Origin: an uncultured Gammaproteobacteria bacterium
Lineage (GTDB): Bacteria > Patescibacteriota > Microgenomatia > UBA8517
DNA length: 64,000 nt
NCBI GenBank assembly: GCA_964431555.1
Contig: CAYSJW010000005.1
Span: 15,215-79,214, forward strand
Direction: 5' to 3'
The notes beneath the pieces were generated by a model. The model was not told the origin of the DNA. It did not search any database and saw only the letters and a program-made list of their open reading frames with translations. Made by a program: the position numbers and the translations under genes. Positions 12,934-32,572 of this stretch are shown in pieces (positions within the stretch are counted from its first letter, which is position 1; each line of letters opens with the position of its first letter).

Positions 12934-12992
<59 letters not shown>

Positions 12993-13505
12993 ATGATTTT
13001 CGACTTCCTTTCAAACTTAAAATGAATTTAGAGACCTTAGCCGAGAGTCTGGGTTGTTTCCCTCTCGTCTTATCAGCTTAGCCCGATAAGACTGTCTAGC
13101 AAGTTTTCGCACATCATTATTCGGAGTTTGGTTGGAATAACTCGGTTGCCCTCGCTATCCCATCCAGTAGCTCTACCACTAATGTACCTACCTTGCCACG
13201 GTGCCTATACACCTTTCGGGGAGAACCAGCTATCTCCAGGCTCGATTGGCATATTACCCCTATCCACAAGTCATCCGAGCTTATTGCAACAAACACCGGT
13301 TCGGGCCTCCCCCTAGATTTCTCTAGGGTTCACCCTGCTCATGGATAGATCGCTCTGGTTTCGGGTCTCGCCACACTTTCTAGGGCACTATTCGTACCCA
13401 TCCAAAATGGAATTCGCTTTCGCTACGCCTCCGTTCTTTAAAGAACTTAGACTTGTGAAAATGAGGCGAACTCGCCGGTTCATTCTTCAATAGGCACGCT
13501 ATCAC

Positions 13506-13640
13506 ACCTCGCTTCACTCGGTGTTCAAAAAATCAAAATGAAAAAGAATAAATATTAAAGAATTAATAAACTTTTATCTCTTAAATACTCATCTTACACT
13601 TTTCATTTTGAAGTATGAATTTGAGCGTCGAGTGAAACGA
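13506..13640 (-). other. AT-rich hairpin insertion (intervening-sequence-like expansion) inside the 23S rRNA 5' half.
   Basis: ~130 nt of ~20% GC inside otherwise ~50% GC rRNA, with an inverted repeat CAAAATGAAAAAG...CTTTTCATTTTG. It is flanked by conserved 23S sequence. Confidence 0.5.
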
Positions 13641-13709
13641 GATGCTCTAGCGGTTTGTCCGCAAACAGTTTCAGGTTCTATTTCACTGGGCGTCCCGCCC
13701 TTCTTTTCG

Positions 13710-13741
<32 letters not shown>

Positions 13742-14650
13742 TTTCAAGCATATTTAGCCTTGGAGGATGGTTCCCCCAGATTCCCACAGATTTTAGACCG
13801 TGGTACTTAGGATACTTCTAGAGGTTGGTTTAGTTTCACATACGAGGCTTTCACTCTCTATGGCCTTCTATTCCAAGACGTTCTGCTACCAAACCAACTC
13901 CCACAATGAAGTCCTGCAACCCTCTTTCGTTCCCGAAGAAACAAAAGAGTTTAGGCTATTGCCGTTTCGCTCTCCACTACTAAGGCAATCACTATTGTTT
14001 TCTTTTCCTCACCCTACTAAGATGTTTCAGTTCGGATGGTTCCCTCCTCGCACCTTATAGGTACTCACAACAATCAACAATCAACCAACAGATATTGTAA
14101 GTTCCGCGGAGCGGAACACGTCGACTGTTAACTGTAGAGAGTACCTCTTAGGGTACGGGTAGTCGCTTTTGAAAGCAACTGGGTTTCCCCATTCGGACAC
14201 CGCCGGATCACTGGATCGTGGCTCCTACCCGGCGATTATCGGAAGCCTTGCCCGTCCTTCTTCGGTGCTTGAAACCAAGGCATCCACTGTCTGCGTTAGT
14301 AAAAGACTTTTACGACCTTGTCCGTAATAGCTTGTACAAAGTACACGCATACGGACCTACTTCCCCAAATTAAAAGATCAATATTGGGGATATCTTTCCT
14401 CTTTAGTTGTTAAGGAGCAAATCAATTTTAGATATAAGATCTAAGATACAGGATACAAGATTTAAGATTTCAGTTCAAAAAATCTTACTTCCTACTTCCT
14501 TCATCTTACATCCTAATTCCAACAACTAACCACTCACAACCCACAACTCACCACTTATTTCCCACTACCCATATATTCTTGATTCTTGGTAAACGGAGAC
14601 TCGTGATCAAAAAGCCAAATCACCAATCTCCGATTAGCAAAAATCAAATG

Positions 14651-14724
14651 TGGACCCGGAGGGAATCGAACCCTCTACCTCCTCATTGCAAATGAGGTGT
14701 TCAAACCTTGTAAACTTCGGGCCC
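14651..14724 (-). tRNA. tRNA-Ala (anticodon UGC).
   Basis: Reverse complement GGGCCCGAAGTTTACAAGGTTTGAACACCTCATTTGCAATGAGGAGGTAGAGGGTTCGATTCCCTCCGGGTCCA. The anticodon loop is TTTGCAA, with G3:U70 and an A discriminator. It lies upstream of 23S as expected for a spacer tRNA. Confidence 0.88.
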
Positions 14725-14954
14725 TAACCCCCACGGATCTTTTAATTTTTTTAATCTGCAAAACAAAAAAACCCGCTCATTAAGGCGGGTTGACTAAACA
14801 AAAGGAAACCTCTTTCACCCACAAAAGGGGGTATTAAGATTGGTTTCTTTGTGAATTTTCATTATTTTCATCAAGCAACTCGCCTTAAGGCAAGGACAAT
14901 TATATTACACTCTGTCAAGACAAGTCAACCACAATTTTTTTCAAAATATCTCCC

Positions 14955-15839
14955 CTAATTGATTGATTCTTGAATAATTTCTCTGGCTTGATTAATAGGT
15001 AATTTTTCGTTTTTTACATTAACCTCATCAGGCAAATTCTTTCCCCAAATTTCCAAAATTCTTTGTCTATCATTTTCATCCGTAACTAACTGCTTAAATC
15101 TCTCCCTTACAAAATTAACGAAAAAGTATGGATTAACTTCTGCAAAAGGATTTTCAATCCCATTTTCATATATCAATCCTAAAAGTCTCCTCTCATTTTG
15201 ACTAAATAAATCATTACCAATCTGATCCATGACTCTCATAAAAACACTAAATGGAGATTTTTGGTCTTCAGGCATGTATTTCGTTTCGTTTATAAGATGT
15301 TTGACAAATTGATTATACCTTTGCTTTTTTTCCTCGCCCAAATTGGAATTATTAATTAAAAATTCAGCAATAGCTTGACTCCTTTCTTCCGCAACTTTGC
15401 CTGTAAAAACATCTTTACCAGCAGTATAGTTGGGAAGGAAAGAAGGTTTAATATTGCCACTTCTTACCGAGAGAAAACTTATTATATTACCAGTATCGTG
15501 GGTATAGATTGCAAACATTATAGCTTCAGACAATTCATCTTCCGGAATAATTAAGTCTGGATGAGAATTATTCCACAAATCCAACGACTTATACAATTCT
15601 AACGGATCATCATCTCTAGAACATCCATCCATATACTTTTTTACAGCACCCACTACTGCTTCAATGTGGCGTCTATTATGAAAGGAGTCTTTATTATTCC
15701 ATACCTCGCTATCAAAAGTATCATGCCACGTAAGACATTTTTCCCAAATTTCCTGGGGCGATAATTGCTCCTTTAATCTACTAGTCTCATTCTCAACAAT
15801 TACAGTTTGAATTTCCTGATTTTCAAGAACATCTGTCAT
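14955..15839 (-). CDS. HD-domain (metal-dependent phosphohydrolase superfamily) protein encoded between tRNA-Ile and tRNA-Ala of the rRNA operon.
   Basis: A 294-aa ORF with H...HD motifs (FHNRRHIEAVV; AIYTHDTGNI) and later acidic residues. It is on the same strand as, and between, the two spacer tRNAs. Confidence 0.55.
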   Translation of the reverse strand: MTDVLENQEIQTVIVENETSRLKEQLSPQEIWEKCLTWHDTFDSEVWNNKDSFHNRRHIEAVVGAVKKYMDGCSRDDDPLELYKSLDLWNNSHPDLIIPEDELSEAIMFAIYTHDTGNIISFLSVRSGNIKPSFLPNYTAGKDVFTGKVAEERSQAIAEFLINNSNLGEEKKQRYNQFVKHLINETKYMPEDQKSPFSVFMRVMDQIGNDLFSQNERRLLGLIYENGIENPFAEVNPYFFVNFVRERFKQLVTDENDRQRILEIWGKNLPDEVNVKNEKLPINQAREIIQESIN

Positions 15840-15939
15840 TTAATAACCCTTGATATATATGATATATACTTCATTTTACCAACCTGGAAAATAAAATTAA
15901 AACAAATCTCCTTTATTTATAAAAATAGTTCAGTTTTTG

Positions 15940-16012
15940 TGGGCGGCCATGGAATCGAACCATGCACCTCTTACTTATCAGGTAAGCGTTCTAACCGATG
16001 AACTAGCCGCCC
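15940..16012 (-). tRNA. tRNA-Ile (anticodon GAU).
   Basis: Reverse complement GGGCGGCTAGTTCATCGGTTAGAACGCTTACCTGATAAGTAAGAGGTGCATGGTTCGATTCCATGGCCGCCCA. The anticodon loop is CTGATAA and the cloverleaf is canonical. Confidence 0.9.
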
Positions 16013-16181
16013 GAAAATATACTAAACTGTTTACTACAAATAAAATTTTACATTTATTTTTTTCCAAAAACAACCCACCACCCACTACTCACAACCCACA
16101 ACTCACTACCCACCACTCACAACCCACAACTCATATCTCACCCCCCCTTCTTTTACTCTGACTTAAATGTATAATTAGATT

Positions 16182-16880
16182 ATGGAAAAACTAACCACAC
16201 TTGCCCTCAAGCTTCCCAGAAACACTCAGGTTACGCCGGAAGCGGCAAAAACCTTCCTTTCTGCACTCATCCAAATTAACTTTATCTCTACCTTTAAAAA
16301 ACTTTTCGGCACTAAAAGAAAACCTTTAGCTTTAGAGATTGCTCTTATTAATCAACAAATCTACTTTTTGATAACTACGGATAACGAACTTATTCCCTTT
16401 ATAGAAACACAGATTACCTCAAATTACCCCTTGGCGATAATCGAAAAGACAAAAGACCCTCTTGAAGTAATTTCTTACAATTTAGTCAACATTTTCCTTC
16501 AAAAAGGAAACTATTATCCAATTGCCACATTTGAAAATTTTCAAGAGGTTGACCTACTCTCTTCAATACTTTCTGTTCTTGCGAAATCCGATCCAGACGA
16601 AGTCACAGTCATTCAATATGCACTTGAATCAACAAATAATTCTTGGCAAACAAAAGGAGCGGGCTTTGCAAAAAAAGGAACAAAAAACCCCGATGGTACT
16701 TATTCCCCAAGATTTGATTTAAATATCATAAACGAAAAAATTTCTTACCCAGGTTTCAGATGTAGCATCCGAATTATTAGTAATGCAAATAAAACCCTAA
16801 ATGAATTGTCAAGTGCCTTTGGTGTCTTTAATAGATCCGACGGAAATTACTTTATTTCTCAAAGACCTAATTTTTTTTAA
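16182..16880 (+). CDS. Hypothetical protein.
   Basis: A 232-aa ORF with ordinary composition for this genome; no recognisable motifs. Confidence 0.45.
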   Translation: MEKLTTLALKLPRNTQVTPEAAKTFLSALIQINFISTFKKLFGTKRKPLALEIALINQQIYFLITTDNELIPFIETQITSNYPLAIIEKTKDPLEVISYNLVNIFLQKGNYYPIATFENFQEVDLLSSILSVLAKSDPDEVTVIQYALESTNNSWQTKGAGFAKKGTKNPDGTYSPRFDLNIINEKISYPGFRCSIRIISNANKTLNELSSAFGVFNRSDGNYFISQRPNFF

Positions 16881-17027
16881 TAATAGGAGTATAAAAACTA
16901 AACCAACCGGAAAGTAAAATATACTCAGAACCTTCATCTATTACCAGCTTTTATCAGAGGTAATAATATAACACAAGGCAACTTCATCCCAAAAGGAAAA
17001 TGTTAACAAATTTTACCTTCTTATCCT

Positions 17028-18317
17028 TTATTTCCCACCCCTACCTTTTCCTCGCTCGGAACGAGGGGGATGGTTTCCTGGAGTCTGTCCACGCTCATCG
17101 TTCGAGGGGTTTCTATTATTACTATTTCCTGGATCGCACCCTTCAGGACCATTACCAATACCTTGATTACATTTTCGCTTATTTTCCCCAGGAGTTTCCG
17201 GTGTTGGCTCTAATGTTGGCTCCGGTGTTGGCTTAGGAGTAGACTCGGTAGTTGGAATGCCCTGTTGCGGACCATATTCCTCGCCTCTAGGGACCTCTCG
17301 CACAACACCACCTACAGGGACAAATCTCCCACCATCAACACCACAAGGACTCCCATTTGAATCCCCACTATCTTGATCTCCAATAACTTTTTCTAGCCCT
17401 CGGTTATAAAGGTCTGGAGTATTGGCAAGAGAGAAGACCTCAACCCTTAGACCTTGACCGTCAGTAACCGCCGCTAATAAAACGGGGTTTCCGGAATCTT
17501 TTCCACGAAAAATTTCTTCTTCCCTTCCGTTACCCGGTTTTTCCACACCTCCTCGAAAACTAACTCTTGCCACATTCTCAAGCTGAGGACCAAAAAGAGG
17601 ATAGCCCAGATATGTTTCATTGGTATCAAAGTCAGGACCAATAGTCCACCATTTCCCATCAACATTCTGGGGTTGAATAGCAAGATCGTCATAGGCTATC
17701 CTTTCAAATAATCTCCTTCTTTCTTCCTGAACAGCAGGATGAAAAGGATCTTTACCTTGTAAACTCAAGAAACCATCAACATAAGCAAGAAGCGCTTTAT
17801 CAATCTCTTTTGCTTCTACAATTGCCCAGCCTCTACTGTAACCGTCATTACCTTTTCTTAGCAAGTCACCTCTACCTAGCAAATCCGAAGTTCTCAAATT
17901 CGCCAAATCGTTAGGAGTAAAGCCAAGACCCTGCCCATCATTTTTAAGATCAAAATCCAAACCTCTTTCCCACAAAGCGCCCTTAACTCCCTTAGGACCT
18001 CCAACAGGAGCGGTTAATTGGTGAAACATTCTATCATGCATATTAATCCTAGCATCCACGGCTTCCCTCAGAGGATTCTCTCGGAGTTCCCCATTAAGAT
18101 CTTCTAGTCTTCCCCTAAGATATTTTCCAAACGTTTCAGGAGTTACAATATTTATACCACCATTTTCTACTGCTGCAAAATTAACACCCGCTGGATGGCT
18201 TGAAATCGGATATTCGCGAGACGCTTCTGGACCTTCAACGAATAGAGCACCACCAGCCACAGCTGCTAGTCTTAAAAAATCTCTTCGTGATAATCGTGGT
18301 AATCTGTCGACTGCCAT
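17028..18317 (-). CDS. Tat-signal (twin-arginine) exported hypothetical protein with a Pro/Thr-rich C-terminus, compositionally atypical (~48-50% GC).
   Basis: N-terminus MAVDRLPRLSRRDFLRLAAVAGGALF (S-R-R-x-F-L motif plus h-region). The C-terminal tail is TPKPTPEPTLEPTPETPG-rich. Local GC is clearly higher than the flanking ~33%. Confidence 0.6.
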   Translation of the reverse strand: MAVDRLPRLSRRDFLRLAAVAGGALFVEGPEASREYPISSHPAGVNFAAVENGGINIVTPETFGKYLRGRLEDLNGELRENPLREAVDARINMHDRMFHQLTAPVGGPKGVKGALWERGLDFDLKNDGQGLGFTPNDLANLRTSDLLGRGDLLRKGNDGYSRGWAIVEAKEIDKALLAYVDGFLSLQGKDPFHPAVQEERRRLFERIAYDDLAIQPQNVDGKWWTIGPDFDTNETYLGYPLFGPQLENVARVSFRGGVEKPGNGREEEIFRGKDSGNPVLLAAVTDGQGLRVEVFSLANTPDLYNRGLEKVIGDQDSGDSNGSPCGVDGGRFVPVGGVVREVPRGEEYGPQQGIPTTESTPKPTPEPTLEPTPETPGENKRKCNQGIGNGPEGCDPGNSNNRNPSNDERGQTPGNHPPRSERGKGRGGK

Positions 18318-18567
18318 ACCTTCCTTTTAATTGTCTTTACTATACCAAAAAGGAGGCTTCTTGTCAACTACAGGATGTTTTTTACTCAAAACAAGTATAA
18401 CTCACAACATGATATCTCTTAGGCATTTGCACAAGAGGTAGTACAAACTGCTCTTACCTCCTTGTCTTGCTGTTAAATCTTTACCCACCCTCCCCCAAGC
18501 TGTTTTTTATTTTCTTCCGAGAGGCTAGGCTATTTTCAGGCAAAAGTGTTATCATAAATAAAGCCCA

Positions 18568-19332
18568 ATGAATAACCACAAAAAGTTATTTATCTACACA
18601 ATTCTAATAACTACAGCCTTCTTTCTAACTCGACTAATAAATCTGACCTTACAACCTATTTTTTGCGATGAAGCTATTTACATAAACTGGGCCCAAAAAA
18701 CAGAGAACAATTTTAAGCTAAACGCTTTTTTGCCTTTAACAGATGGTAAAACTCCACTTTTTATGTGGGCAACTTCATTAAGCCTTAAAATTTTCAAAGA
18801 TCCTCTTTTTGCTGGAAGAATAGTCTCAGTTCTTGCCGGTTTTTCTTCTCTCATCGCCGCTTTTTTTCTCGGAAAAGAAATTTTCAAAACAAAAACAGGA
18901 ATTATCTCTGCTATTCTGCTAACTTTTCTGCCGTTTACTCTGTTTTTTGACAGAATGGCCCTAGTTGATTCAATGCTTGCCACTTTTTATCTTTGGTCCT
19001 TAGCGCTTGCCTTAAAAATATCTCAAAAGCCCAAGGTCAAAACAGCCGTTCTTTTAGGCTTAAGTTTGGGAGGAGGGATATTAACCAAAACCCCGGGAAT
19101 TTTTGCTTTTATCTCTTTACCCTTCATACTCATTGCAACCAACTTAAAAGATCTTAAAAAGGTAGCACTTAATCTTGGTCTTTCCGCTTTTATTGGTTTC
19201 TTTATTTTTAACCTGCTTAGAATTAGCCCCTATTTTGAAAACTTGTCAAAAAGAGACTCTGGGTATTACTTTCCCATAAGACATATCCTAGAAAACCCCA
19301 CAAATCCACTAACTGGAAATACAATAGGGTAA
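18568..19332 (+). pseudogene. N-terminal fragment of a GT-C fold (GT39/GT83, ArnT/PMT-like) membrane glycosyltransferase, truncated by IS insertion.
   Basis: Polytopic membrane N-terminus with FCDEAIYINWAQ (DE..Y loop motif of PMT/ArnT-type transferases). The ORF ends after 254 aa with a TAA lying inside the IS inverted repeat (GGGTAAAGT), whereas family members are ~450-550 aa. Confidence 0.5.
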
Positions 19333-20184
19333 AGTCTAATTATTCGGACCTTAAATGTTGATTTAATAACATAAATAAGCGTTTTTCTTGCTCTTTGAAA
19401 TTTTAATTTCTGTGATTGTATCGCCAGATGTATTCTCCAAGATATAAAGGCAGTCTTTGTTGACAAATTCCACCTCTAGCCGCTAGTTTCCTTTTCAAAT
19501 ATCCCCAAAATCCTTCAAGGCCATTGATGTGATTTCCTTTTTTATTAGAATACTCTTTTTTACTATGATCAACAAGTCGATGGACATAACCTTTGGATGC
19601 TAATCCAGTGTATCCTCGCCAAGTATCAGAACAGATGGTTGAACCTTTGCTAACTTGTTTTTCAATTAAGGGTTGTAAATCTCTGGCTTCTGTATCAGGA
19701 ACAATCTCAGCGAATATCTTTCCTTCCCGGCACAAAATACCAAAGACTGGTTGTTTAATAGTCCCAAAACCCCTGCGATTTTTACCATATTTTATGCAGT
19801 CTTTTTGCTTTCTATTCTTCATTTGACCACCCAAGTAAGTCTCATCTACTTCTACTATTCCCGAAAAGATGTCTGGCACATCTTTAGTCATTACTATTCT
19901 TAACAGAATTAATAATTTCAGAAGTTTGTATTTGGAAATGTTAACCCTTTCAAGGATAGTGTTGGTTGAATGTTCTAACACAAACTCAGAAATTACTTTT
20001 TTAACAACCCTTTTATTAAGTCTTAGAAGCTTCTTTTTCAGAGTAAATGACTTTCGACAAACTAAACAACGAAGACGTCCATCTTTTAATCTCCAGAACC
20101 TTTTGGTATTACTACATTGTAAACATTTCGTCATATTCCTAATGTGATTTTATCCCATTAGGTCTGAAATATTGAACTTTACCC
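19327..20184 (-). mobile_element. IS1595-family insertion sequence (~858 bp) with ~24-bp terminal inverted repeats.
   Basis: Left end GGGTAAAGTCTAATTATTCGGACC (19327..19350). The right end reverse complement is GGGTAAAGTTCAATATTTCAGACC (20161..20184). It encloses transposase ORF 19403..20134. Confidence 0.8.
19403..20134 (-). CDS. IS1595-family (ISXO2-like) DDE transposase.
   Basis: N-terminal zinc ribbon CLQCSNTKRFWRLKDGRLRCLVCRK and a C-terminal region ...HINGLEGFWGYLKRKL...YLGEYIWRYNHRN typical of DDE_Tnp_IS1595. Confidence 0.85.
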   Translation of the reverse strand: MTKCLQCSNTKRFWRLKDGRLRCLVCRKSFTLKKKLLRLNKRVVKKVISEFVLEHSTNTILERVNISKYKLLKLLILLRIVMTKDVPDIFSGIVEVDETYLGGQMKNRKQKDCIKYGKNRRGFGTIKQPVFGILCREGKIFAEIVPDTEARDLQPLIEKQVSKGSTICSDTWRGYTGLASKGYVHRLVDHSKKEYSNKKGNHINGLEGFWGYLKRKLAARGGICQQRLPLYLGEYIWRYNHRN

Positions 20185-20446
20185 TATATTATGAAAGCTT
20201 TCTAGTCAATGATAACTAAAATATTCAAAACATATCTTCAAAGCACCCCTTGTTAGAAGAGAAAAAAATTTCAAGCGGGATCGTGGGACAAAAAACCTCC
20301 TTGTAAAACTCTTGGTGGAGGGTACAGAGATGGTAAAAAATAGCAGTTAGCAATTAGCAGTTAGTTGTTAGTTGTTAGTAGTTAGTAGTTAGCAATTAGC
20401 AGTTGGCGGTTGGTAATTAGCAGTTGGTTTTTAGTAAAATGCAAAT

Positions 20447-20719
20447 ATGAGCGGTTTTGAGGATTTGAGGATTTATAGACTTTCTTTGGAGGGCTGCAAG
20501 ATAATTTACAAGATTATTTTAAAAGACCCTATTAAAAAAGATTACTCTTTAGTTGATCAAATAAAAAGGGCAGTTATGTCGATTGTCGCTAATATTGCTG
20601 AAGGTTATGGACGCTACACTAAAAAAGACCGCTCTCAGTTTTTAACATATTCAATTGGATCTTGTAATGAAGTACTAGCCTTTTTGGATATAATCAATAC
20701 TATTTGTAATATTGAATAA
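20447..20719 (+). CDS. Four-helix-bundle protein (TIGR02436, '23S rRNA intervening-sequence protein' family), short form.
   Basis: LRIYRLSLEGCKIIYKI...AVMSIVANIAEGYGRYTKKDRSQFLTYSIGSCNEVLAFLDI has the NIAEG signature. It is a paralog of the ORF inside the 16S IVS. It is flanked by inverted heptamer arrays at 20341..20427 and 20811..20880. Confidence 0.75.
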   Translation: MSGFEDLRIYRLSLEGCKIIYKIILKDPIKKDYSLVDQIKRAVMSIVANIAEGYGRYTKKDRSQFLTYSIGSCNEVLAFLDIINTICNIE

Positions 20720-21109
20720 TATTGATGTATCAAAAGAAAAGAAAGTTTTTCTTTCTCTAGGAAAACAAATCTATTCATTCCGTAAAGCCCTTCAGAATTC
20801 ATAGTATTAACTCACTGCTTACAACCAACTGCCTACTACCTACTACCAACTACTTTACTGCTATCTGCCCACTGCCTAACGTATTACCGTTTCTCTACCC
20901 TCTATCAAGGGAAAATTACGCCAAGGTATTGGCGAATCAATCCAACAAAGCCCTACGGCGGAGTTGGAAAATACCCGGAGCTGGCCGAACCAGTTTTAAA
21001 TCCTCTTTCTGTTTGCCAAGAGCTGGCACCAAGGTCGCTAAGCGATCGCGCAGCTCCCCACTAGTAAAGTGGCAATTGAAAGAAGAAAACCAAGCAATAG
21101 GAGGTTTGA

Positions 21110-21531
21110 TAATGAACACCAAACGGATGTTTTTACTGGGTATAGTTGCCCTGTTGGTGGTCGCATTCGCGACCGGTACGGCATTGTCAAGCGGAGCCGC
21201 CGACATTACCGTTGTTTATGAGGACGACTATATGGTCGTCTATCAAGACGGTGATTTCGGTAACCGTATTGCGCTGAATAAAGCGGGAGGCGTGGATGCC
21301 TACTGTCCGTGCGAGGACGTCTGTCCTTTAACCGCACAGGGTGCTCCGGCAACCGCAACGCAACCGCCGCAGACAACGGCAACCAGCCAACCCCCATATA
21401 ACGGGGTGTGGATTCATCACGAATCCCAGGGCGTTGGCGACCAAAGCTGGACGCGCTGCATGCCACCGAGTGCCTGGAATGGACACAGTCCCCACGAAGG
21501 GGACTGGCTCGGTGGAGGTTGCTACCGCTAA
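21110..21531 (+). CDS. Secreted Cys-rich hypothetical protein in a GC-rich islet.
   Basis: MNTKRMFLLGIVALLVVAFATGTALSSGAAD signal peptide, then PATATQPPQTTATSQPP and several Cys/Trp. The region 20880..22080 is ~52% GC, and the tracked ORF begins further upstream at 20929. Confidence 0.5.
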
Positions 21532-22185
21532 TCGTCATTCGGGGTAACCCCAACACTAAGTCAGTTGGAAACTGACGACAAGGGTTACCCCACCCCCTCT
21601 CCCTTGTACCAAGTTTTACTTGGTGAGAGGCTCATCGATCGATCGAAAGATGGGTAAAACAAGGAAAGCGGGGCTCGCGAAATGGTAATTTTGCCCTCAA
21701 GACGCTTGCGTCTTTCGTCTTACGCAGACGATTAATGAGTGGCGATTTAGCCAATTTGCGAGTATGCGGACTGTTTATGAGTTGTGTTTTGATTTTAGGA
21801 CGAAACGATAACCGTAAGGTTATCAAATCAAGTAGCCAAAAAGCTACAAATCCAAAAAATCAAATCCAACCCCCAAAATAGTCCCCCCGCAATAGTTAGT
21901 TTTCGACCAACAGTCGAACTGAAGAGATCTTGTCCGATAATTATCGGAATGCGATCGAAACTATTAAACAAATTAATTAGTGTGTCGTAACTGATCCCAG
22001 CACAGAACTTACTTGCTCCCGAGTACTACGTGCTCGCGTCACAAGAGCGTTTATGCGGGACAAGTGAGACCGAAAGGTTGAAACTAAAAAAATAGTTTAG
22101 TATTTAGTTATTAGTGGTTAGTATTTAGTTTAAATTACACCTTAACAATTTATTCATTGACCAAAAATCACGGAAGTGGTTTAAT

Positions 22186-22671
22186 GTGGATATGGGAAAA
22201 GGCAAAGTGTTGACCAAAAAAGATGCTGAATTTTTAAAACAGGAATTCAAAAGTGTCTTTGCAACCAAAGAAAACCTTAAGATTTTAAAAAAAGAAATCG
22301 CCAACAGGGTGACAAGGTCTGTTGTTCCTCAAGTTACAAGGTCAGTGGTTCCTGAAGTTACAAGATCTGTCGTCCCTGAAGTAGCTAAGGCTGTCGTTCC
22401 TGAAATAGCGAAGGCTGTTGTTCCTGAAGTAACTCAAGCAGTTATCCCTCAAATTAAATCCGTCGTAAAGCTTGTAATTTCTGGGGAGTTAACAGAACAA
22501 GAAGAAAAGTACGAAAAGAAACTTGAAGAATTTAAGAGCGAGTTCTTTGACAAGGTTGACCTGATTTTAAAAGAAATAACAACGGTACAGGAAGAAAGAC
22601 CTTTGATTGAAAGTCGACTTGAAGCCCTTGAAAAAATTCATCCGCAAGGTAAACACGTTCTTTCATCCTAA
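22186..22671 (+). CDS. Tandem-repeat / coiled-coil hypothetical protein.
   Basis: Seven tandem 27-bp (9-aa) repeats VTRSVVPQ/VTRSVVPE/VAKAVVPE..., followed by a charged predicted coiled-coil C-terminus. Confidence 0.55.
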   Translation: MDMGKGKVLTKKDAEFLKQEFKSVFATKENLKILKKEIANRVTRSVVPQVTRSVVPEVTRSVVPEVAKAVVPEIAKAVVPEVTQAVIPQIKSVVKLVISGELTEQEEKYEKKLEEFKSEFFDKVDLILKEITTVQEERPLIESRLEALEKIHPQGKHVLSS

Positions 22672-23028
22672 TCACCCTTTAAAACCAAATCCCGTGTGTT
22701 TTCCTACCCGCAATGCCTGAAGCATAGCCAATGAAAACTGTCTGTGCAGGATTTGAAAAACGATTTTAATGGACCTGCACTAATTATTCAACTTGCTACA
22801 AATAAAAAAATTATTTAAATTTGATTGAGTAGGTTTATAATTAAAACATAGCTACCCAAAAGCGTGGGGGTAACCAAAGGTAAAAAACATAACCTAAAAA
22901 ATTATGTTACCTCTAAAGCAAAGTCCTGTACCGAATGGTATGGGACACTCCGCCGTCCTTGGGTAAAATCAAGGAAAGCGGAGAAACCAAAGGTTGCCTC
23001 CACACTTTTGGGGATCCAAGATTAGGAT

Positions 23029-23679
23029 TTAGTTTTGCGAAGATAAAATTGACTCAATTTTATTTCTGTTTTTTTCATTATCATCAGCATTAACTACTAA
23101 AATTACTTTTTCTATTTTTGAATCAGGTCTATCTTTAAAATAGTCTTTGATACCTCCAATAATTGATAATAATCGCGGCCTAAAAGTTTCCGGAGTAATC
23201 TCTCCAAATAAAGGAACTGCCACCGTCTTCACTTCAGCAGTACTTTCAGCCACCTCCAAAGAATTTCCAACTGCCAACCTCACTGGATCTTGACTTTTAC
23301 TTTCTCCAGTATTTGATATATTTGTATGAATTATTTTCTTAACCGAAGATCCTTCTAATCCCACCCCAGTTGCCACCGAATATCCCGGAGGAATATGAAC
23401 TTCACCTTTTAAGCCTATTTCTCTTAAACTTCCTTTAAAATGACTTTCTGCCTCTTTCGCCTTTCTAAATGGATCATCCCCAAATTTGATAATCAGTAAT
23501 TCTCCTTCCAAAGAAGTACTAAAAAAACTCCCATCATACGGGCAAACTAAAGCATCAGCTGTAACTTCATCTATTCTTCCAAAACTAATACTAACCTTAT
23601 CCCTCCAAATAGGAGCCTCTAAACGAATTGAACCATCTCCCGTCTCTCCGTTTCCCATACTATATTCTCTCACATTCAC
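23029..23679 (-). CDS. Hypothetical protein.
   Basis: 216-aa ORF with coding-like composition and no secure family assignment. Confidence 0.4.
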   Translation of the reverse strand: MNVREYSMGNGETGDGSIRLEAPIWRDKVSISFGRIDEVTADALVCPYDGSFFSTSLEGELLIIKFGDDPFRKAKEAESHFKGSLREIGLKGEVHIPPGYSVATGVGLEGSSVKKIIHTNISNTGESKSQDPVRLAVGNSLEVAESTAEVKTVAVPLFGEITPETFRPRLLSIIGGIKDYFKDRPDSKIEKVILVVNADDNEKNRNKIESILSSQN

Positions 23680-24222
23680 CTAAATTCACAAAATCACCAA
23701 TTCCTCAACACCGGGAGTTGATCAGCTTCCAACAATGGGTCTTTTAGATAAAGTGAGTTGTTGGTTGTTAGTTGTTAGTTGTTAGTTGTTAGTGGTTAGT
23801 GGTTAGTTATTAGTTGTAAGAGGTATGGAATGAGGAGTGAGTGGTGGGTAGTGGGTAGTGGGTTGTGGGTTGTGAGTAGTGGGTGGTGAGTTGTGATAAA
23901 TAGATATAGGAAGTTAGAAGTTAGTAGTTAGTATCTGGGAGTTGAGGAAAATAAACCCAAAACACAAAATTCAAAATTGTAATAAAAATTTAAAAATTAT
24001 AATTATTAATATAAAGTAGAATCATTAACTATTAACCATAAATTAATAATAATTTACAGGTTTTGAAGTTTAGTATAAAGCTTTCAAGATTTAGCTTTTG
24101 AGACACAAATATTCTCCATAATAAAAGACCAACGCCATATAAAGATTCTGAATAGCAATTTTATTCACTACAAAGTATTTTGACTGGAAAAATAGTTCAA
24201 TACTATAATATCAAATTACAGC

Positions 24223-24792
24223 ATGAATCCGGAAAGAAAAAGGCAAACAACCTTAATTTCCACAGAGCTTGGGTTCACAGTATTATGGTTATATCTCGCA
24301 TGTTTAAGTGGTTGTGAGGAAAATCGACAACAACTCTCAACATTAACTCCTCCTCAACCACCAGGTGAATCATCCAAGGGTCGAGACCTTCTTCCAACTC
24401 TCCCATCAGTAAAGCCAGAAACAAGAATGGAAGAACTAGTCAACCAAATTGAGGAAGAAGGCTATAATTGTGAGCCGATTCCAAAAGGTAGTTGGCTAAC
24501 CCAAGAACTAAGAAAAAGAGGAGCTCCAGGGATCGATGAGGGACCATACAAAATTATCCGAAGAGGTGGTAAAGTAGAAACCTTTGAAACTTATGATCAG
24601 CTTCCTAACCTAGTTTATCCAGGTGAGCAATTTTGCATCAAAGAAAATGGCAGTTCCTCGATTATCCCCGGAAAAAATCATGGAGTTATTTTTGAATGGA
24701 ATAATATGCCTTTTGTAAGAACACAAAATAGGGCTTTCCAACAAAAAAGTCAAGAAATAACATCTAGGCTCCGCGCAAAACAAAGGTTCTAA
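24223..24792 (+). CDS. Putative lipoprotein.
   Basis: N-terminal h-region followed by the lipobox LACLSGC. 189 aa. Confidence 0.5.
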   Translation: MNPERKRQTTLISTELGFTVLWLYLACLSGCEENRQQLSTLTPPQPPGESSKGRDLLPTLPSVKPETRMEELVNQIEEEGYNCEPIPKGSWLTQELRKRGAPGIDEGPYKIIRRGGKVETFETYDQLPNLVYPGEQFCIKENGSSSIIPGKNHGVIFEWNNMPFVRTQNRAFQQKSQEITSRLRAKQRF

Positions 24793-25079
24793 AATCTCAA
24801 AAAATCCCCTAGTCAAATTTATATTTTGACATCCAAAATATGACTGGAAGCGGTCCCCGTTTTATCACAGTCAAAACGGCGAACTTAAAAACTGGGTGCT
24901 ATCACCCCTCTTTCGCAAAAAAGCAAAAAGAGGGTTCCCGTGAGAACTCCTTAGAAAGGAGGTGATCCATCCGCTCCTTCCAGAACGGATACCTTGTTAC
25001 GACTTAATCCTCATCGCTGGTTTCACCTTCCCCTCCGACTCGGAGGGTTCGGGTGCCCCCAACTTTGCTGACTTGACGG

Positions 25080-25951
25080 ATTGCACTTCATCGAAGTTAT
25101 CGTGCGTTCCCACTAAGCGAGCGGCTTTCCCGCACTTAGCGAGCCGTAATGCTTATTCATCTCCAGCTTCAATTTCCTAATAAAAGAGAGTTCTTTTTCA
25201 GAGAGCTTACGCACATCCTGCCTTCCCTTAACTATCTCGGCTATTTGGCAAAAAGCATTAAAACTTTCCGCTTTATAGCCCAAGAGTTTATGTCGTTTGA
25301 AAAAGGGTATTATGACATTGTAAATATCATCCCTTTTTGTAAATTCAAAGACCCAAGCAGGAAGACGACCCACGCGCCTAGCACTCTTTTGATAAACAGT
25401 CCCTACGTTGAAAAATTGCTGGACCTTTAAAAGCAATGGTTTATTTCCTTCAGCTTGAGTAATGAAAAATCGTAAATCGATTCTGTTATCAGCTCGAATA
25501 GATACAAGGAAACATCCCTCACCTTCTGTCAATCCAACAACATATGAAGCTGGAAGCATTACGTATTTCCCTTCGATAATGCCAGTATACGAATGTTTTC
25601 AATATACTGTCAATTATCTACTATGGAAATGCTGACTTCCTAAAAGGCAATTACTTCGTTCCTTTTAGGATCTCCGTGGGTCATCATATATTCTATTCCC
25701 GGCATGAACAAATTGCTTTTACAAACTGGCTTCCTTCTGACCGCCCAGCAGAAGTCGCCAAGCATTTTCATTTTGTCCCTGCCGTTTGCCTCAGGCCCTC
25801 CGTTCTATCGGTTACCCGTAAAAGCAAAGTTTATACTTTGCAATAGAACTGCCAATTTTTTGGCTACATTTCAAGTTGGTAAAGGTTAACCATCAAGAAA
25901 TGGTAAGATTTTAACTTACTAGAATATATGACTGCCACGCGCGCATTTATT
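25080..25951 (-). mobile_element. Group I intron in the 16S rRNA 3' domain, inserted after GTACACACCGCC, carrying a LAGLIDADG ORF.
   Basis: 16S collinearity stops after ...GGGTCTTGTACACACCGCC (plus 25952) and resumes at CGTCAAGTCAGCAAAGTTGGGGG (plus ~25079). The ~870-nt insert contains ORF 25113..25559. Confidence 0.85.
25113..25559 (-). CDS. LAGLIDADG-family homing endonuclease (intron-encoded, in 16S).
   Basis: MLPASYVVGLTEGEGCFLVSIRADN carries the LAGLIDADG-type motif VVGLTEGEGCF. 148 aa. Confidence 0.9.
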   Translation of the reverse strand: MLPASYVVGLTEGEGCFLVSIRADNRIDLRFFITQAEGNKPLLLKVQQFFNVGTVYQKSARRVGRLPAWVFEFTKRDDIYNVIIPFFKRHKLLGYKAESFNAFCQIAEIVKGRQDVRKLSEKELSFIRKLKLEMNKHYGSLSAGKPLA

Positions 25952-26414
25952 GGCGGTGTGTACAAGACCCGAGAACGTATTCACCGCGACTTTGCTGATT
26001 CGCGATTACTACCAATTCCGCGTTCATGAGGGCGAGTTGCAGCCCTCAATCCCCACTGAGAAGCCGTTTGATGGGATTAGCTCCGCGTTACCGCTTGGCA
26101 ACCCATTGTCGGCTCCATTGTAGCATGCGTGTAGCCCTGGACATAAGGGCCATGCTGACTTAACGTCATCCCCGCCTTCCTCCAAGTTTAACTTGGCAGT
26201 CCCGTATGAACAATCTAACATACGGCAGGGGTTTCGTTCGTTACCCCACTGAAGGGAACACCCCACGGCACGAACTTACGATAGCCATGCAACACCTGTC
26301 CTACCATCCAACTTTCGAAGGATCTGCTACTATTTCTAGTAACATAAACGGTAGGATGTCAAGTCCAGGTAAGGTTCTTCGGTCCGTCTCGAATTAAACC
26401 ACATGCTCCACTGG

Positions 26415-26446
<32 letters not shown>

Positions 26447-27359
26447 TAAACTTGCGTTCGTACTCCCCAGGCGGCTCGCTTAACGCGTTAGCTTGCGCCC
26501 CACGCCCAAAGGCGTAGGGCTAGCGAGCATAGTTTACGGCTAGGACTACAGGGGTCTCTAATCCCTTTCGCTCCCCTAGCTTTCGTTCCTCAGCGTCAAA
26601 CAGTTCATAGTTACCTGCCTTCGCCCTCGGTGTTCCTTGCGATATCAACGGATTTCACCCCTACACCGCAAGTTCCGGTAACCCCTAAATGTTTCGATTT
26701 CTTCAGTATTACCTCCCTTTCCGAGGTTAAGCCCCGGTCTTTGAAAGATAACTTAAAGAAACGCCTACGAACTCTTTACGCCCAATAAATCCGGACAACG
26801 CTTGCACCCTCTGTATTACCGCTGCTGCTGGCACAGAGTTAGCCGGTGCTTATTCTCCGTTCGGTCTCCCTCACGGCAAAAGTGGTTTACAACCCGAAGG
26901 CCTTCATCCCACACGCGGCGTCGCGGCGTCAGACTTTCGTCCATTGCGCACGATTCCCAGTTGCTGCCACCCGTAGGTGTATGGGCCGTGTCTCAGTCCC
27001 ATTCTGGGGGGTCACGCTCTCACGTCCCCTACCCGTCGTAGCCTTGGTAGGCCATTACCCTACCAACTAGCTGATAGGCCGCAGGCTCCTCCTTCGGCGG
27101 ACAGTTACATCCTTTGCTGCGTAGCAGCCAACCATCAACTAACAACAATCAACTCACAACTCTTATATTAGTTGTCTTTTAATTGTTGAAGCTCACAAGA
27201 TGAGCGTGTTGAAAGCTCGCTGCTGCGCAGCGTATGCGGTATTAGCCCCGCTTTCGCGGGGGTATTCCCCACCAAAGGGTAGATTCCTACGTGTTACTCA
27301 GCCGTTCGCGACTATCCGCAGGACAGAACATTCAACAATAAACAAGTAACTGGTTACAA

Positions 27360-27722
27360 CTAACTCTTCTTAAGATACTTCGAAAAACCTCCAAGTTGAT
27401 CAGCAATCTGCTTAGTTTCCTTTATCAACTCATTTTTTAAAGTAGAACTTATAAGTTTAGATTCAAATGCTATATCAATTCCAGCAGTAGTTTCATTTAT
27501 AGAACCTAATGAGTTGTTTAAATACATATTCAATTCTTTATCAGAGTCTTTGCCAGATCCTTCTGCGATATTAAGAACTACAGAGAGACTACTCCTTCTT
27601 ATCTGATCCGCTAATTCCCTATGTTCTCTCGGGAAAGTTTTACTTATCTCAACAACTGACAAATAAAATCTTTTTGCATCTTTATAAACTTTAAACCTCA
27701 TAAATCGAAATGTTTTATCCAT
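27360..27722 (-). CDS. Four-helix-bundle protein (TIGR02436, rRNA intervening-sequence protein) encoded inside an IVS in the 16S rRNA V1 region.
   Basis: MDKTFRFMRFKVYKDAKRFYLSVVEISKTFPREHRELADQIRRSSLSVVLNIAEGSGKDSDKE has the family-defining NIAEG motif. The ORF sits ~70 nt into the 16S, between inverted flanks GGTCCGCAGGAC / GTCCTGCGGA that form the IVS stem. Confidence 0.85.
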   Translation of the reverse strand: MDKTFRFMRFKVYKDAKRFYLSVVEISKTFPREHRELADQIRRSSLSVVLNIAEGSGKDSDKELNMYLNNSLGSINETTAGIDIAFESKLISSTLKNELIKETKQIADQLGGFSKYLKKS

Positions 27723-28157
27723 ATTCTTTGTTAATAATTAATAGTTACCAGTCGCAAGTTACAAGTTGATCTGTTCGGTCCTGCGGACCGTCCCACTTGC
27801 ATGCTTAAGGCACGCCGCTAGCGTTCGTCCTGGGCCAGGATCAAACCCTCAAATAAGTGACGAGTTTATACCCTAGTTGCGTATAAACAGCAACCAAAGT
27901 GTAGTTCGTCTATACGCCGGGTGTCAAATGACACCCGATCAGGTACCGAATGGCACCTGACTTCCAGTCATATTTTGAATGTCAAAGAGCAAAAATCAAA
28001 AAACCCACCAGATGGTGGGTTAATTTTAAGTTCCCGAATTAACGGAAAACCATCTGGCTCTTATTTCTTCATAAACTAAACTCAAATCAACTAAATGTAT
28101 TGAGCATATATAGTATATCAAAAAAATCAAACGAGTCAATTATAAATTTTTAGAATT

Positions 28158-30751: not shown

Positions 30752-30890
30752 AAAGATAATTCCCCAGATCTTTATCGATAAAATTAAATATCCCAATTAA
30801 ATAATTAAATACCCGAAAGGTTTGAACCTATTCAACCCGTCGGGTTTGAACCTATTTTTTCATTAACTCTACGTTTAAATTCAAGAGATT
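30752..30890 (+). repeat. Direct repeat copy 1 (~140 bp) of a hairpin-containing element. It overlaps the 3' end of gene 30832..32118.
   Basis: AAAGATAATTCCCCAGATCTTTATCGATAAAATTAAATATCCCAATTAAATAATTAAATACCCGAAAGGTTTGAACCTATTCAACCCGTCGGGTTTGAACCTATTTTTTCATTAACTCTACGTTTAAATTCAAGAGATT. It is nearly identical to 32391..32539. Confidence 0.9.
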
Positions 30891-32348: not shown

Positions 32349-32572
32349 CCCGAAAGGTTTGAACCTATTCAACCCGTCGGGTTTGAACCTAAAGATAATT
32401 CCCCGGATCTTTATCGATAAAATTAAATACCCCAATTAAATAATTAAATACCCGAAAGGTTTGAACCTATTCAACCCGTCGGGTTTGAACCTATTTGAAC
32501 CTATTTTTTCATTAACTCTACGTTTAAATTCAAGAGATTGAACCTATTCAACCCGTCGGGTTTGAACCTATT
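32349..32572 (+). repeat. Direct repeat copy 2 (32391..32539) plus extra partial core copies (32349..32390, 32540..32572) of the CCCGAAAGGTTTGAACCTATTCAACCCGTCGGGTTTGAACC hairpin element.
   Basis: Near-identical to 30752..30890. The core contains a small palindrome AACCCGTCGGGTT. A diverged copy is at 56738..56790. Confidence 0.9.

What the first reader, a model, noticed from the sequence alone, without database searches (positions are those of the whole stretch)
21541..23010. Two diverged ~150-nt structured elements in direct orientation flanking a 27-bp tandem-repeat gene
21541..21700 and 22858..23010 share an architecture: a GGGGTAACC...GGTTACCCC-type hairpin, a ~100-nt spacer containing CCTKGTACC, then GGGTAAAAYCAAGGAAAGCGGRG. 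Between them lies ORF 22186..22671 with seven perfect-phase 27-bp repeats (VTRSVVPEV). This is either a family of small structured RNAs or the terminal repeats of a cassette. Neither matches a riboswitch or housekeeping RNA I can recognise.
Basis: seen in the sequence. Interest (0 to 1): 0.55.

Follow-up and report, generated by a model that had tools for sequence, protein, structure and literature searches.

The report
One new small RNA, one unrelated hairpin
Of the two "matching" elements, only the second (22855-23013) is a real small structured RNA gene, from a family found in a few Woesebacteria-like bacteria that matches no described RNA family; the first is the conserved end-of-gene hairpin of the gene before it, and the two share only one 22-base stretch.

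Summary

**Element B (22855-23013, +)** is a stand-alone small RNA gene.
- It has its own TTTAAA-16-TATAAT promoter.
- Its fold z-score is -9.6.
- I found five other distinct homologues in Woesebacteria-like (candidate phyla radiation, CPR) contigs.
- The closing helix P1 and hairpin H3 are kept by compensatory changes: 95% of cells paired against about 50% in slid controls, 11 pairs changed on both sides, 0/500 shuffles.
- No Rfam family matches. Function is unknown.

**Element A (21541-21700)** is not a member.
- Covariance models of the B family give no hit on A.
- Outside one 22-nt stretch, A and B are no more alike than shuffled sequence.
- A's GGGGTAACC...GGTTACCCC hairpin is the conserved 3' hairpin of the upstream 139-aa gene. 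In a related contig it has two compensatory pairs, is followed by a U-tract, and sits alongside a separate B homologue.
- The rest of A is not conserved.

**The 22-nt match** could be chance or a short copied patch.

**No cassette.** The gene between the two elements is a coiled-coil protein with 24-bp (8-aa) repeats, not 27-bp repeats. It occurs with B but without A, and A's hairpin occurs with B but without it.

The parts
21112..21531 (+). GC-rich 139-aa gene with an N-terminal signal or transmembrane segment. Element A lies in its 3' flank.
   Evidence: Called on the source contig. A 62%-identical homologue, P0015, is on L039. Nucleotide homology with L039 runs from 20884 to 21595.
21541..21591 (+). 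First half of A. A conserved 3' hairpin of the 139-aa gene: a 10-bp outer stem GGGGUAACCC/GGGUUACCCC, an internal loop, and a 7-bp apical stem. It is terminator-like.
   Evidence: The hairpin is 88% identical to L039 against 58% for the CDS. Two compensatory double changes occur in the apical stem: C-G to U-A and A-U to G-C. In L039 it is followed by ACCCUUUUUCUUUUUU. In the window the U-tract has become CCCCCUCUCCCUUGU.
21592..21698 (+). Second half of A. A non-conserved 3' flank that holds the 22-nt stretch shared with B (21651-21671).
   Evidence: Homology with L039 stops at 21595; identity beyond that is 41%. No hit with models R1 or R2. The motif match scores 32.8 bits.
21699..21721 (+). 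Small hairpin AAGACG-CUUG-CGUCUU followed by UCGUCUU. Possibly the working terminator of the 139-aa transcript in this genome.
   Evidence: Read from the sequence and present in the MFE fold. The terminator scan did not list it, so this is an inference.
21757..21826 (+). Possible decayed remnant of a type III hammerhead: GCGAGU..CUGuuuAUGAG..GGACGAAAC.
   Evidence: It aligns to the L039 hammerhead region with 9 of 1000 shuffles scoring as high. The catalytic core is broken and Rfam reports no hammerhead here. The intact copy on L039 scores 37.9 bits, E = 3.9e-6.
22192..22671 (+). 159-aa coiled-coil protein gene with an expanded 24-bp (8-aa) tandem repeat at about 22312-22455.
   Evidence: TRF gives period 24, 5.0 copies, 82% matches. 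Homologues have 1-5 units. No convincing Pfam or NCBIfam family.
22814..22841 (+). Sigma-70-type promoter of the B RNA: TTTAAA, 16 nt, TATAAT.
   Evidence: Best promoter-like site in the region, 10 of 12 matches. A TATAAT box also precedes the homologues on L012, L022 and L028.
22855..23013 (+). Element B, a structured small RNA.
- P1: 22855-22875 with 22992-23012.
- P2 hairpin with a lineage-specific extension: 22878-22912.
- Conserved CUCUAAAGCA: 22912-22921.
- Lineage-specific extra hairpin H2: 22923-22946.
- H3 with an internal loop: 22948-22983.
   Evidence: MFE -81.8 kcal/mol, z = -9.6. The helix coordinates come from the fold. Model R2 scores 68 bits on the + strand against 18 bits on the - strand.
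23029..23658 (-). 209-aa divergent macro-domain protein, convergent with B. It is the neighbour of the B homologue in three lineages (window, L022/L021, L012 type).
   Evidence: Homologues P0002 and P0003. A profile of the three sequences matches macroH2A1.1 macro domains at E = 1.5e-4 to 2.7e-4 over residues 25-192. Synteny is shown.

Best explanation
The region holds two independent features, not a pair.

**(1) Element B (22855-23013, + strand) is a stand-alone gene for a small structured RNA.**
- It is transcribed from its own TATAAT promoter.
- The compact form in relatives is about 100 nt. It consists of:
  - a 16-22-bp closing helix P1 (GUGUGGGGGU... / ...CCCCCACAC);
  - a short A-rich hairpin P2;
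  - an invariant stretch ACCUCUAAAGCAC;
  - a hairpin H3, CUCCGC-CG-CCCUNN...NNAGGG-AA-GCGGAG, with a small internal loop and a variable tip.
- The window's copy is a long form of 158 nt. It has an extended P2 and one extra hairpin inserted after AAAGCA.
- The family is inherited vertically in a few Woesebacteria-like CPR genomes. In three lineages it lies within 1-3 kb of the 3' side of the 16S gene.
- My inference on how it works: it acts in trans as a stable, protein-bound RNA. The invariant junction and internal loop would be the recognition surface, and the tips tolerate insertions. It is not a leader or riboswitch, because no gene follows it on its strand.

**(2) Element A is the 3' flank of the GC-rich 139-aa gene.**
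- Its first 51 nt are a conserved, terminator-like hairpin that belongs to that gene.
- The following ~107 nt (21592-21698) are not conserved.
- That flank contains a 22-nt stretch identical (one indel) to the tip and 3' side of B's H3.
- The stretch is either a chance match or a short copied patch. It does not make A a member of the family.

**What is shown and what is inferred.**
- Shown: B's structure, family, strand and promoter; A's orthology to the L039 hairpin; the absence of A/B homology beyond 22 nt.
- Inferred: B's mode of action and the origin of the 22-nt patch.
For: **B is a real RNA gene**
- Fold z = -9.6.
- Promoter at 22814-22841.
- Homologues were found by blastn and covariance model on L012/L005-L011, L022, L021 (cut by the contig end), L028, L038 and L039.
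- The L028 copy is followed by a perfect A6-stem-U6 terminator.

**Structure**
- On six distinct sequences, 95.2% of cells pair, against 44-54% when the partners are slid.
- 11 of 28 pairs change on both sides, against 1-4 in the slid controls.
- 0 of 500 shuffles reach the observed values.
- RNAalifold independently predicts the same P1 and H3.

**Strand**
- 18 G-U cells in the structure.
- 68 bits on the + strand against 18 bits on the - strand.

**Not a leader**
- The next gene is on the other strand in the window, L022 and L039.
- In L028 the RNA is followed by a terminator.

**Not a known family**
- Rfam gathering and E-value scans of the window, the compact homologues and the isolated 126-nt RNA give only chance-level hits.
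- ARAGORN finds no tRNA or tmRNA there.

**A is not a member**
- No R1 or R2 hit on either strand.
- Similarity left of the motif is at chance level.
- Window/L039 homology runs from 20884 to 21595 and stops right after the hairpin.
- The hairpin shows two compensatory changes, and in L039 it is followed by a U-tract.
- L039 has its own B homologue 370 nt further on, at 56.9 bits.
Against: - Only six distinct family members were found. Exact-pattern scans of GTDB genomes and JGI metagenomes returned very few real hits, so the distribution and the consensus are thinly sampled.
- No expression data are available.
- The junction is unresolved. P2 and an extension of P1 (P1b) compete for the same 5' strand.
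- L038, the closest relative, has five or six pair-breaking changes among nine substitutions. This argues for relaxed constraint in the long form or for sequencing errors.
- The 22-nt stretch lies in the part of H3 that varies between lineages. Its identity in A is therefore odd for pure chance, given the 1.3-kb distance and the shared orientation.
- A's hairpin is more conserved than a plain terminator needs to be, and in the window it has no U-tract.
- Nothing here shows that B binds a protein.
Confidence: 0.7

Rival explanations
1. A and B are diverged paralogues of one structured-RNA family.
For: - A 22-nt near-identity that no shuffle reaches.
- A shared GGGGTAACC word, the same orientation, and 1.3 kb between the two.
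- A's hairpin loosely resembles a miniature B: GGGGUAAC..CAAAAC.UAAG..GUUACCCC.
Against: - Models R1 and R2 find nothing at A with filters off, although R2 contains B itself.
- Similarity outside the motif is at chance level.
- A lacks the family's invariant blocks (CUCUAAAGCAC, CUCYGCCG, the 3' strand of P1).
- A's hairpin is orthologous to the hairpin after the same gene in L039, which has a separate B homologue.
- The shared stretch lies in the lineage-variable tip of H3, not in the conserved core.
Confidence: 0.07
2. A and B are the terminal direct repeats of a mobile cassette that carries the repeat-containing gene.
For: - The two flank one gene in direct orientation.
- The gene is present in some relatives and absent in others.
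- An IS1595 copy lies 1.4 kb upstream.
Against: - The 'repeats' share only 22 nt.
- L038 and L028 have the gene followed by B without A.
- L039 has A's hairpin and B without the gene.
- There is no integrase or transposase inside the unit and no target-site duplication.
- B has its own promoter and its own evolutionary history.
Confidence: 0.03
3. B is a cis-acting element: a large bidirectional terminator or insulator between the convergent coiled-coil and macro-domain genes, not a trans-acting RNA.
For: - P1 is a long G+C-rich helix flanked by AAAAG on the 5' side and CUUUU on the 3' side, so both strands read as a stem followed by a U-run.
- B ends 16 nt from the stop codon of the convergent macro-domain gene.
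Against: - A TATAAT box (a full -35/-10 pair in the window) lies 14-55 nt upstream of P1 in the window, L038, L012, L022 and L028.
- L028 has a separate canonical terminator just after the RNA.
- The internal junction and H3 are conserved in sequence and by covariation, which a terminator would not need.
- Many G-U pairs make the structure strand-specific.
Confidence: 0.1
4. B is a base-pairing regulatory sRNA. Its invariant ACCUCU/CUCC stretches, which resemble the anti-Shine-Dalgarno sequence, would pair with ribosome-binding sites of target mRNAs.
For: - The 13-16-nt block AAACCUCUAAAGCAC is invariant in five of six members.
- In the P1b conformer this block is single-stranded.
- It resembles the 16S 3' tail ACCUCCU (alignment).
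Against: - In L039 the block reads CCUUU, and the change is compensated on the other strand of P2 (GAGG to AAGG). The constraint therefore looks structural.
- No complementary site stands out in the window: 1 match at 3 mismatches against 1.5 expected.
- A 20-bp closing helix and an insertion-tolerant multi-helix fold are unusual for seed-type sRNAs. This last point is from general knowledge.
Confidence: 0.15

Closest known systems
Orphan structured small RNAs found by comparative genomics (the type catalogued in Rfam as 'Gene; sRNA' motifs of unknown function)
   Same: A stand-alone promoter-to-terminator unit of about 100-160 nt. Helices are supported by compensatory changes, the junction nucleotides are invariant, the phylogenetic range is narrow, and no coding potential is conserved.
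   Different: It matches none of the 4227 Rfam 15 models, even at E <= 10 on the isolated RNA. It is restricted, as far as sampled, to Woesebacteria-like CPR contigs and usually lies beside the 16S gene.
Small bacterial SRP RNA (4.5S, RF00169)
   Same: Similar size, GGGGG...CCCCCAC ends that form a long closing helix, a GGAAGC-like string on the 3' side of the main hairpin, and housekeeping-style placement near translation genes.
   Different: - No covariance-model hit.
- The hairpin tip is 8-27 nt and variable, not a GNRA tetraloop.
- The internal loop is CG/AA, not the SRP symmetric and asymmetric loops.
- There is an additional P2 hairpin and a junction.
Rho-independent (intrinsic) terminators
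   Same: A's first hairpin directly follows a stop codon, is G+C-rich, and in L039 is followed by a U-tract.
   Different: It is 51 nt long with a conserved 9/5-nt internal loop and is more conserved than the gene itself. In the window the U-tract is replaced by a C/U mix.
Type III hammerhead ribozyme (RF00008)
   Same: L039 carries a complete core (GUC, CUGAUGA, GAAAC, three stems) between the 139-aa gene and the B homologue. The window has a similarly placed degenerate stretch.
   Different: The L039 score of 37.9 bits is below Rfam's gathering score of 48.5. The window copy has a broken core and Rfam does not detect it. Neither A nor B is a hammerhead.

Membership tests
B-family small RNA (defined here; models R1 and R2) | A full-length match to the covariance model: P1, the ACCUCUAAAGCAC junction, and H3 with the CG/AA internal loop. 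| tested here: met
   Element B scores 68 bits, E = 3.5e-15, over model positions 1-102. Other members: L039 56.9 bits; L012, L022 and L028 at 104-113 bits (though these three built the model); L038 23.6 bits over the full length.
B-family small RNA (defined here; models R1 and R2) | The same test applied to element A (21541-21700). | tested here: not met
   No hit at E <= 10 on either strand, with R1 (default filters) or with R2 (filters off, whole window).
Any Rfam 15 family | A match at or near the family's gathering score. | tested here: not met
   The best hit over B is the ylbH leader at 16.3 bits against 50 needed, E = 2.6. The compact homologues give only terminator-driven or microRNA chance hits.
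Bacterial SRP RNA | Helix 8 with a GNRA-type tetraloop and the conserved symmetric and asymmetric loops. | tested here: not met
   No RF00169 hit at E <= 10. The tip of H3 is GGUAAAAU, GGAUUGUU, GGUUAAUUUU, or a 27-nt insertion.
tRNA / tmRNA | A cloverleaf with a T-loop, an acceptor end, and for tmRNA a tag reading frame. | tested here: not met
   ARAGORN reports nothing at B or at its homologues. There is no GUUCRANNC T-loop. A G3-U pair is present in B and L022 but not in L012, L028 or L038.
Riboswitch / cis-regulatory leader | Location in the 5' UTR of a gene on the same strand, with an expression platform. | tested here: not met
   The next gene is on the opposite strand in the window, L022 and L039. 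In L028 a terminator follows and then the 16S flank.
Intrinsic terminator (A's first hairpin) | A G+C-rich hairpin immediately followed by a U-tract, downstream of a stop codon. | tested here: inconclusive
   Met in L039, where the tail is ACCCUUUUUCUUUUUU. In the window the tail is ACCCCCUCUCCCUUGU, and the terminator scan does not list the site on the + strand.
Terminal repeats of a mobile cassette | Extended repeat identity at both ends, and presence or absence of the whole unit together. | tested here: not met
   Only 22 nt are shared. The gene and B occur without A (L038, L028), and A's hairpin and B occur without the gene (L039).
Hammerhead ribozyme in the window (21757-21826) | An intact CUGANGA...GAAA core with three stems and a cleavage triplet. 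| tested here: not met
   There is no Rfam hammerhead hit at E <= 10 in 20800-23700. The core reads CUGuuuAUGAG.
Expressed, processed small RNA (B) | A discrete transcript with defined 5' and 3' ends. | not testable with these tools
   No transcriptome data could be consulted. Only promoter and terminator sequence features are available.

The most novel reading that the evidence does not exclude
The B family is an undescribed, vertically inherited ribonucleoprotein-type RNA of Woesebacteria that is linked to the rRNA operon. Its junction can switch between two mutually exclusive pairings, P2 and P1b. The 22-nt copy of its H3 tip in the 3' flank of the neighbouring 139-aa gene would be a second binding site for the same partner, so that the small RNA and that mRNA compete for it.
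Probability: 0.1. Interest if true: 0.7.

Novelty: new member of a known kind. Interest (0 to 1): 0.4.

Why it matters
CPR bacteria have small genomes and are known almost only from metagenomes. Apart from rRNA, tRNA and the universal RNAs, very few of their non-coding RNAs have been described.

This is a covariation-supported small RNA with its own promoter. It is kept beside the 16S gene in several Woesebacteria lineages and matches no Rfam family. That makes it a concrete candidate for covariance-model searches and for metatranscriptome and pull-down work.

The practical result for the scan is a correction. The two-element cassette is not real. One element is an ordinary, though unusually well conserved, gene-end hairpin.

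Tried and rejected
- **Exact-motif scans.** GGGTAAAA(N)CAAGGAAAGCGG gave 0 hits in GTDB genomes. It gave 2 hits in JGI metagenomes, both inside coding sequence of unrelated contigs and so chance matches. The motif is not a family signature.
- **Core pattern.** CCTCTAAAGCA-N(0-30)-CTCYGCCGYCC in GTDB genomes gave 12 hits. Only two were real: L031, which is the L012 genome, and L028, which is binned as 'Gammaproteobacteria' but has CPR-like content. In viral contigs there was one hit, which the model does not confirm.
- **A's hairpin pattern** in viral contigs gave nothing.
- **Loci of more distant homologues of the coiled-coil gene** (L013-L020, L036, L037, L041, L042) hold no B homologue. In L013 that position holds a tRNA-Ile.
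- **MAFFT on the full-length sequences** misaligned B's insertions. I therefore aligned B and L038 with the 27-nt H2 insertion removed. This is a manual edit and is stated as such.
- **Known RNA types.** SRP RNA, tRNA/tmRNA and riboswitch readings were each rejected on tested features; 6S RNA, Y RNA and retron RNA were rejected on the absence of any Rfam hit, the ~100-nt size and the lack of a neighbouring reverse transcriptase or Ro-type gene. See the membership table.
- **DGR reading.** I considered a diversity-generating retroelement because an Avd-like 23S_rRNA_IVP gene lies at 20447-20719. None of the nine neighbouring ORFs tested (17028-25559) is a reverse transcriptase, and there is no template/variable repeat pair.
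- **Hammerhead in A's hairpin.** It contains CUGACGA and GAAAC, but their order does not fit a hammerhead and the word is not conserved in L039.
- **Complementarity.** A search for sites complementary to the invariant junction found nothing above chance.
- **Literature.** Searches for described CPR or Microgenomates structured RNAs found nothing relevant.
Full report
**Context**

The window is a low-G+C (about 35%) metagenomic contig, ENA ERZ27245602 k141_228336. Its nearest named relatives are Candidatus Woesebacteria, part of the Microgenomates in the candidate phyla radiation (CPR).
- 16S rRNA lies at 25898-27399 and 23S rRNA at 11235-14310, both on the - strand.
- They are 11.6 kb apart, with protein genes on both strands in between.
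- The finding sits inside this interval.

Gene order around the finding:

| Coordinates | Strand | Feature |
|---|---|---|
| 19403-20134 | - | IS1595 transposase |
| 20447-20719 | + | 23S_rRNA_IVP four-helix protein |
| 21112-21531 | + | GC-rich 139-aa gene |
| 21541-21700 | + | Element A |
| 22192-22671 | + | 159-aa repeat gene |
| 22855-23013 | + | Element B |
| 23029-23658 | - | 209-aa gene |
| 24223-24792 | + | 189-aa ORF |
| 25113-25559 | - | LAGLIDADG ORF |
| 25898-27399 | - | 16S rRNA |

**Checking the observation**

What holds up:
- Both elements are present.
- B folds into a four-way junction closed by a helix of about 21 bp (-81.8 kcal/mol, z = -9.6). A folds with z = -4.1.
- The shared motif is real but contains an indel: A has TGGGTAAAA-CAAGGAAAGCGG and B has TGGGTAAAATCAAGGAAAGCGG.
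- No dinucleotide shuffle of B reaches the local alignment score (0 of 2000).

What does not hold up:
- Once the motif is removed, the rest of A and B align no better than shuffles (1278 of 2000).
- The word 'CCTKGTACC' is really CCTTGTACC against CCTGTACC.
- An all-against-all blastn of the window shows several unrelated pairs at about the same score (32.8-34.6 bits). A reader scanning a whole window for repeated words would be expected to meet a match of this strength. Only its closeness to B and the shared orientation make it noteworthy.
- The ORF repeat has a 24-bp period (8 aa), with 5.0 copies by TRF, not 27 bp times 7.

**Element B is a member of a conserved RNA family**

How the homologues were found:
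- Homologues of the flanking proteins led to related contigs.
- blastn and then a covariance model found B homologues at these places:
  - L012, identical on L005-L011 (Woesebacteria RIFCSPHIGHO2_01_FULL_39_32);
  - L022, and L021 where the contig end cuts the RNA;
  - L038, a close relative with the long form;
  - L039.
- L028 came from a pattern scan of GTDB genomes.

Anatomy:
- The compact form is about 100 nt.
- B and L038 carry two lineage-specific additions: a 23-nt extension of the P2 hairpin and a 27-nt insertion that forms the extra hairpin H2 after AAAGCA.

Structure support, on six distinct sequences with the H2 insertion removed by hand from B and L038:
- P1 and H3 pair in 95.2% of cells, against 44-54% when the 3' partners are slid.
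- 11 of 28 pairs change on both sides, against 1-4 in the slid controls.
- No shuffle of 500 reaches these values.
- RNAalifold predicts the same helices on its own.
- L039 is the most informative member. Its H3 carries several C-G to U-A double changes.

Strand:
- 18 G-U cells in the structure.
- 68 bits on the + strand against 18 bits on the - strand.

Transcription signals:
- A TATAAT box lies 14-55 nt upstream of P1 in the window, L038, L012, L022 and L028.
- L028 has a perfect terminator directly after the RNA.
- No gene follows on the same strand in the window, L022 or L039.

Genomic setting:
- The 16S 3' end is 0.9-2.9 kb away in the window, L022 and L028.
- It is not seen within the L012-type or L039 loci.

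**Is B something already known?**

- Rfam 15 gives nothing for the window, for the region at E <= 10, for the compact homologues, or for the isolated 126-nt RNA searched with the laxest filters.
- ARAGORN finds no tRNA or tmRNA.
- SRP RNA is the nearest look-alike by eye (GGGGG/CCCCCAC ends and a GGAAGC string). It fails on the tip of the hairpin, which is variable and tolerates insertions, and on the internal loops.
- Literature searches found no description.
- I therefore treat it as a new family of an ordinary kind, a stand-alone structured small RNA.

**How B most likely works (inference)**

- The invariant parts are the junction ACCUCUAAAGCAC, the base of H3, and its CG/AA internal loop.
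- The tips of P2 and H3, and the site after AAAGCA, accept insertions of 19-27 nt.
- This pattern is typical of RNAs recognised by a protein at a junction or internal loop. It is less typical of seed-pairing sRNAs.
- The one change inside the 'anti-SD-like' CCUCU (CCUUU in L039) is compensated in P2, which points to a structural constraint.
- The 20-22-bp closing helix could be an RNase III site. This was not tested.
- The junction remains ambiguous. GAGG can pair with CCUC (P2) or with the segment 3' of H3 (P1b), and MFE folds choose differently in different members.
- In L038, five or six of nine substitutions break pairs. This is a caution for the long form.

**Element A is a different thing**

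- L039 carries a 62%-identical homologue of the 139-aa gene.
- Nucleotide homology with the window runs from 20884 to 21595 and stops exactly after A's first hairpin.
- Identity by segment:

| Segment | Identity to L039 |
|---|---|
| 5' UTR | 74% |
| CDS | 58% |
| Hairpin | 88% |
| Beyond the hairpin | 41% |

- The apical stem shows two compensatory double changes: GUCAGUU/AACUGAC in the window against GUUGGUU/ACCAAC in L039.
- In L039 the hairpin is followed by ACCCUUUUUCUUUUUU, so there it is an intrinsic terminator. In the window the tract has drifted to C/U.
- L039 then has a type III hammerhead at 4953-5026 (37.9 bits, E = 3.9e-6) and its own B homologue at 5058-5159.
- So the hairpin and the B RNA are two separate, syntenic features in both genomes.
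- In the window the coiled-coil gene lies between them. In L039 it does not.
- Models R1 and R2 give no hit on A.

**The 22-nt stretch**

- In the B family it covers the variable tip and the 3' side of H3, so it is specific to the B/L038 lineage.
- In A it lies in the non-conserved flank and is not in the same local structure.
- It could be chance, a short copied patch, or a shared binding site. These cannot be separated with the data available.
- My rough weighting is 35%, 45% and 20%.

**The gene in between**

- It is a 159-aa coiled-coil protein of a small CPR family. One source names a homologue 'predicted nuclease with TOPRIM domain', but no domain model supports that here.
- The 8-aa unit is expanded to about six copies in the window. 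Relatives have one to five.

**Verdict**

Its cassette reading is rejected.
- Its 'small structured RNA' reading is correct for B alone.
- B is a new, narrowly distributed RNA family of unknown function.
- Interest is moderate.

Noticed in passing
window 14498-14571, 16060-16147, 20341-20437, 20820-20853, 22096-22129, 23756-23933; also L039 ~3900-3950 and L022 ~1215-1255: Arrays of heptamer tandem repeats (TTAGTAG, AGTTGTT and AGTGGGT types) fill many intergenic spacers, in either orientation, including the spacers beside A, B and the rRNA genes.
   Followed up: no
window 24825-24850 and 27961-27986: A 26-nt inverted repeat (96% complementary) brackets the 16S gene together with the LAGLIDADG ORF at 25113-25559. 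It looks like a pre-16S processing stem that also encloses the endonuclease ORF. A similar box (TTGACACTCAAAATATGACTGGAAG) lies next to the B homologue in L028.
   Followed up: partly
window 19319-20192: An IS1595-family transposase (19403-20134, -) with 33-nt inverted repeats (19319-19351 and 20160-20192) appears to interrupt a PMT_2 glycosyltransferase gene (18568-19332).
   Followed up: no
window 11235-27399: The 16S and 23S genes are 11.6 kb apart, with protein genes on both strands between them. tRNA-Ile and a second tRNA lie near the 23S gene. ARAGORN calls the second tRNA a 91-nt tRNA-Pro(agg), while Rfam calls a 74-nt tRNA at the same place.
   Followed up: no
window 20884-21111: The 5' flank of the 139-aa gene is better conserved with L039 (74%) than the CDS (58%), with a 35-nt identical block AAGGGAAAATTACGCCAAGGTATTGGCGAATCAAT. 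That block translates to KGKLRQGIGES, which resembles the C-terminus (KRKCNQGIGNG) of the GC-rich 429-aa ORF at 17028-18317 (-). It could be a conserved leader or a remnant of an upstream gene.
   Followed up: partly
L039 4953-5026; window 21757-21826: L039 has a type III hammerhead with a complete core (Rfam 37.9 bits, E = 3.9e-6, below the gathering score of 48.5) between the 139-aa homologue and the B homologue. The window has a weakly alignable stretch with a broken core at the same relative place. L012, L022 and L036 have a related C-rich-plus-hairpin element there, without the core.
   Followed up: partly
window 23029-23658 (-): The 209-aa gene convergent with B has no Pfam or NCBIfam hit. 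A profile of it with two homologues matches macro domains (macroH2A1.1) at E = 1.5e-4 over almost its full length.
   Followed up: partly
window 30752-30890 / 32391-32539; 41807-41952 / 42115-42261 / 60109-60257; 31186-31277 / 31316-31409: Several dispersed or tandem repeats of 90-150 nt at 87-92% identity lie elsewhere in the window. They are much stronger than the A/B match.
   Followed up: no
L028 (CAYSZS010000050.1): This contig is deposited as an 'uncultured Gammaproteobacteria' MAG. It carries a B homologue, a LAGLIDADG ORF highly similar to the window's, two of the CPR coiled-coil genes and a 16S 3' end. It is probably a mis-binned CPR contig.
   Followed up: partly
L013 6514-6587: In Woesebacteria RIFCSPHIGHO2_01_FULL_44_21 (name from the P0008 cluster), the position downstream of the coiled-coil gene holds tRNA-Ile(GAT), on the strand opposite to the flanking 16S and 23S genes.
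   Followed up: no
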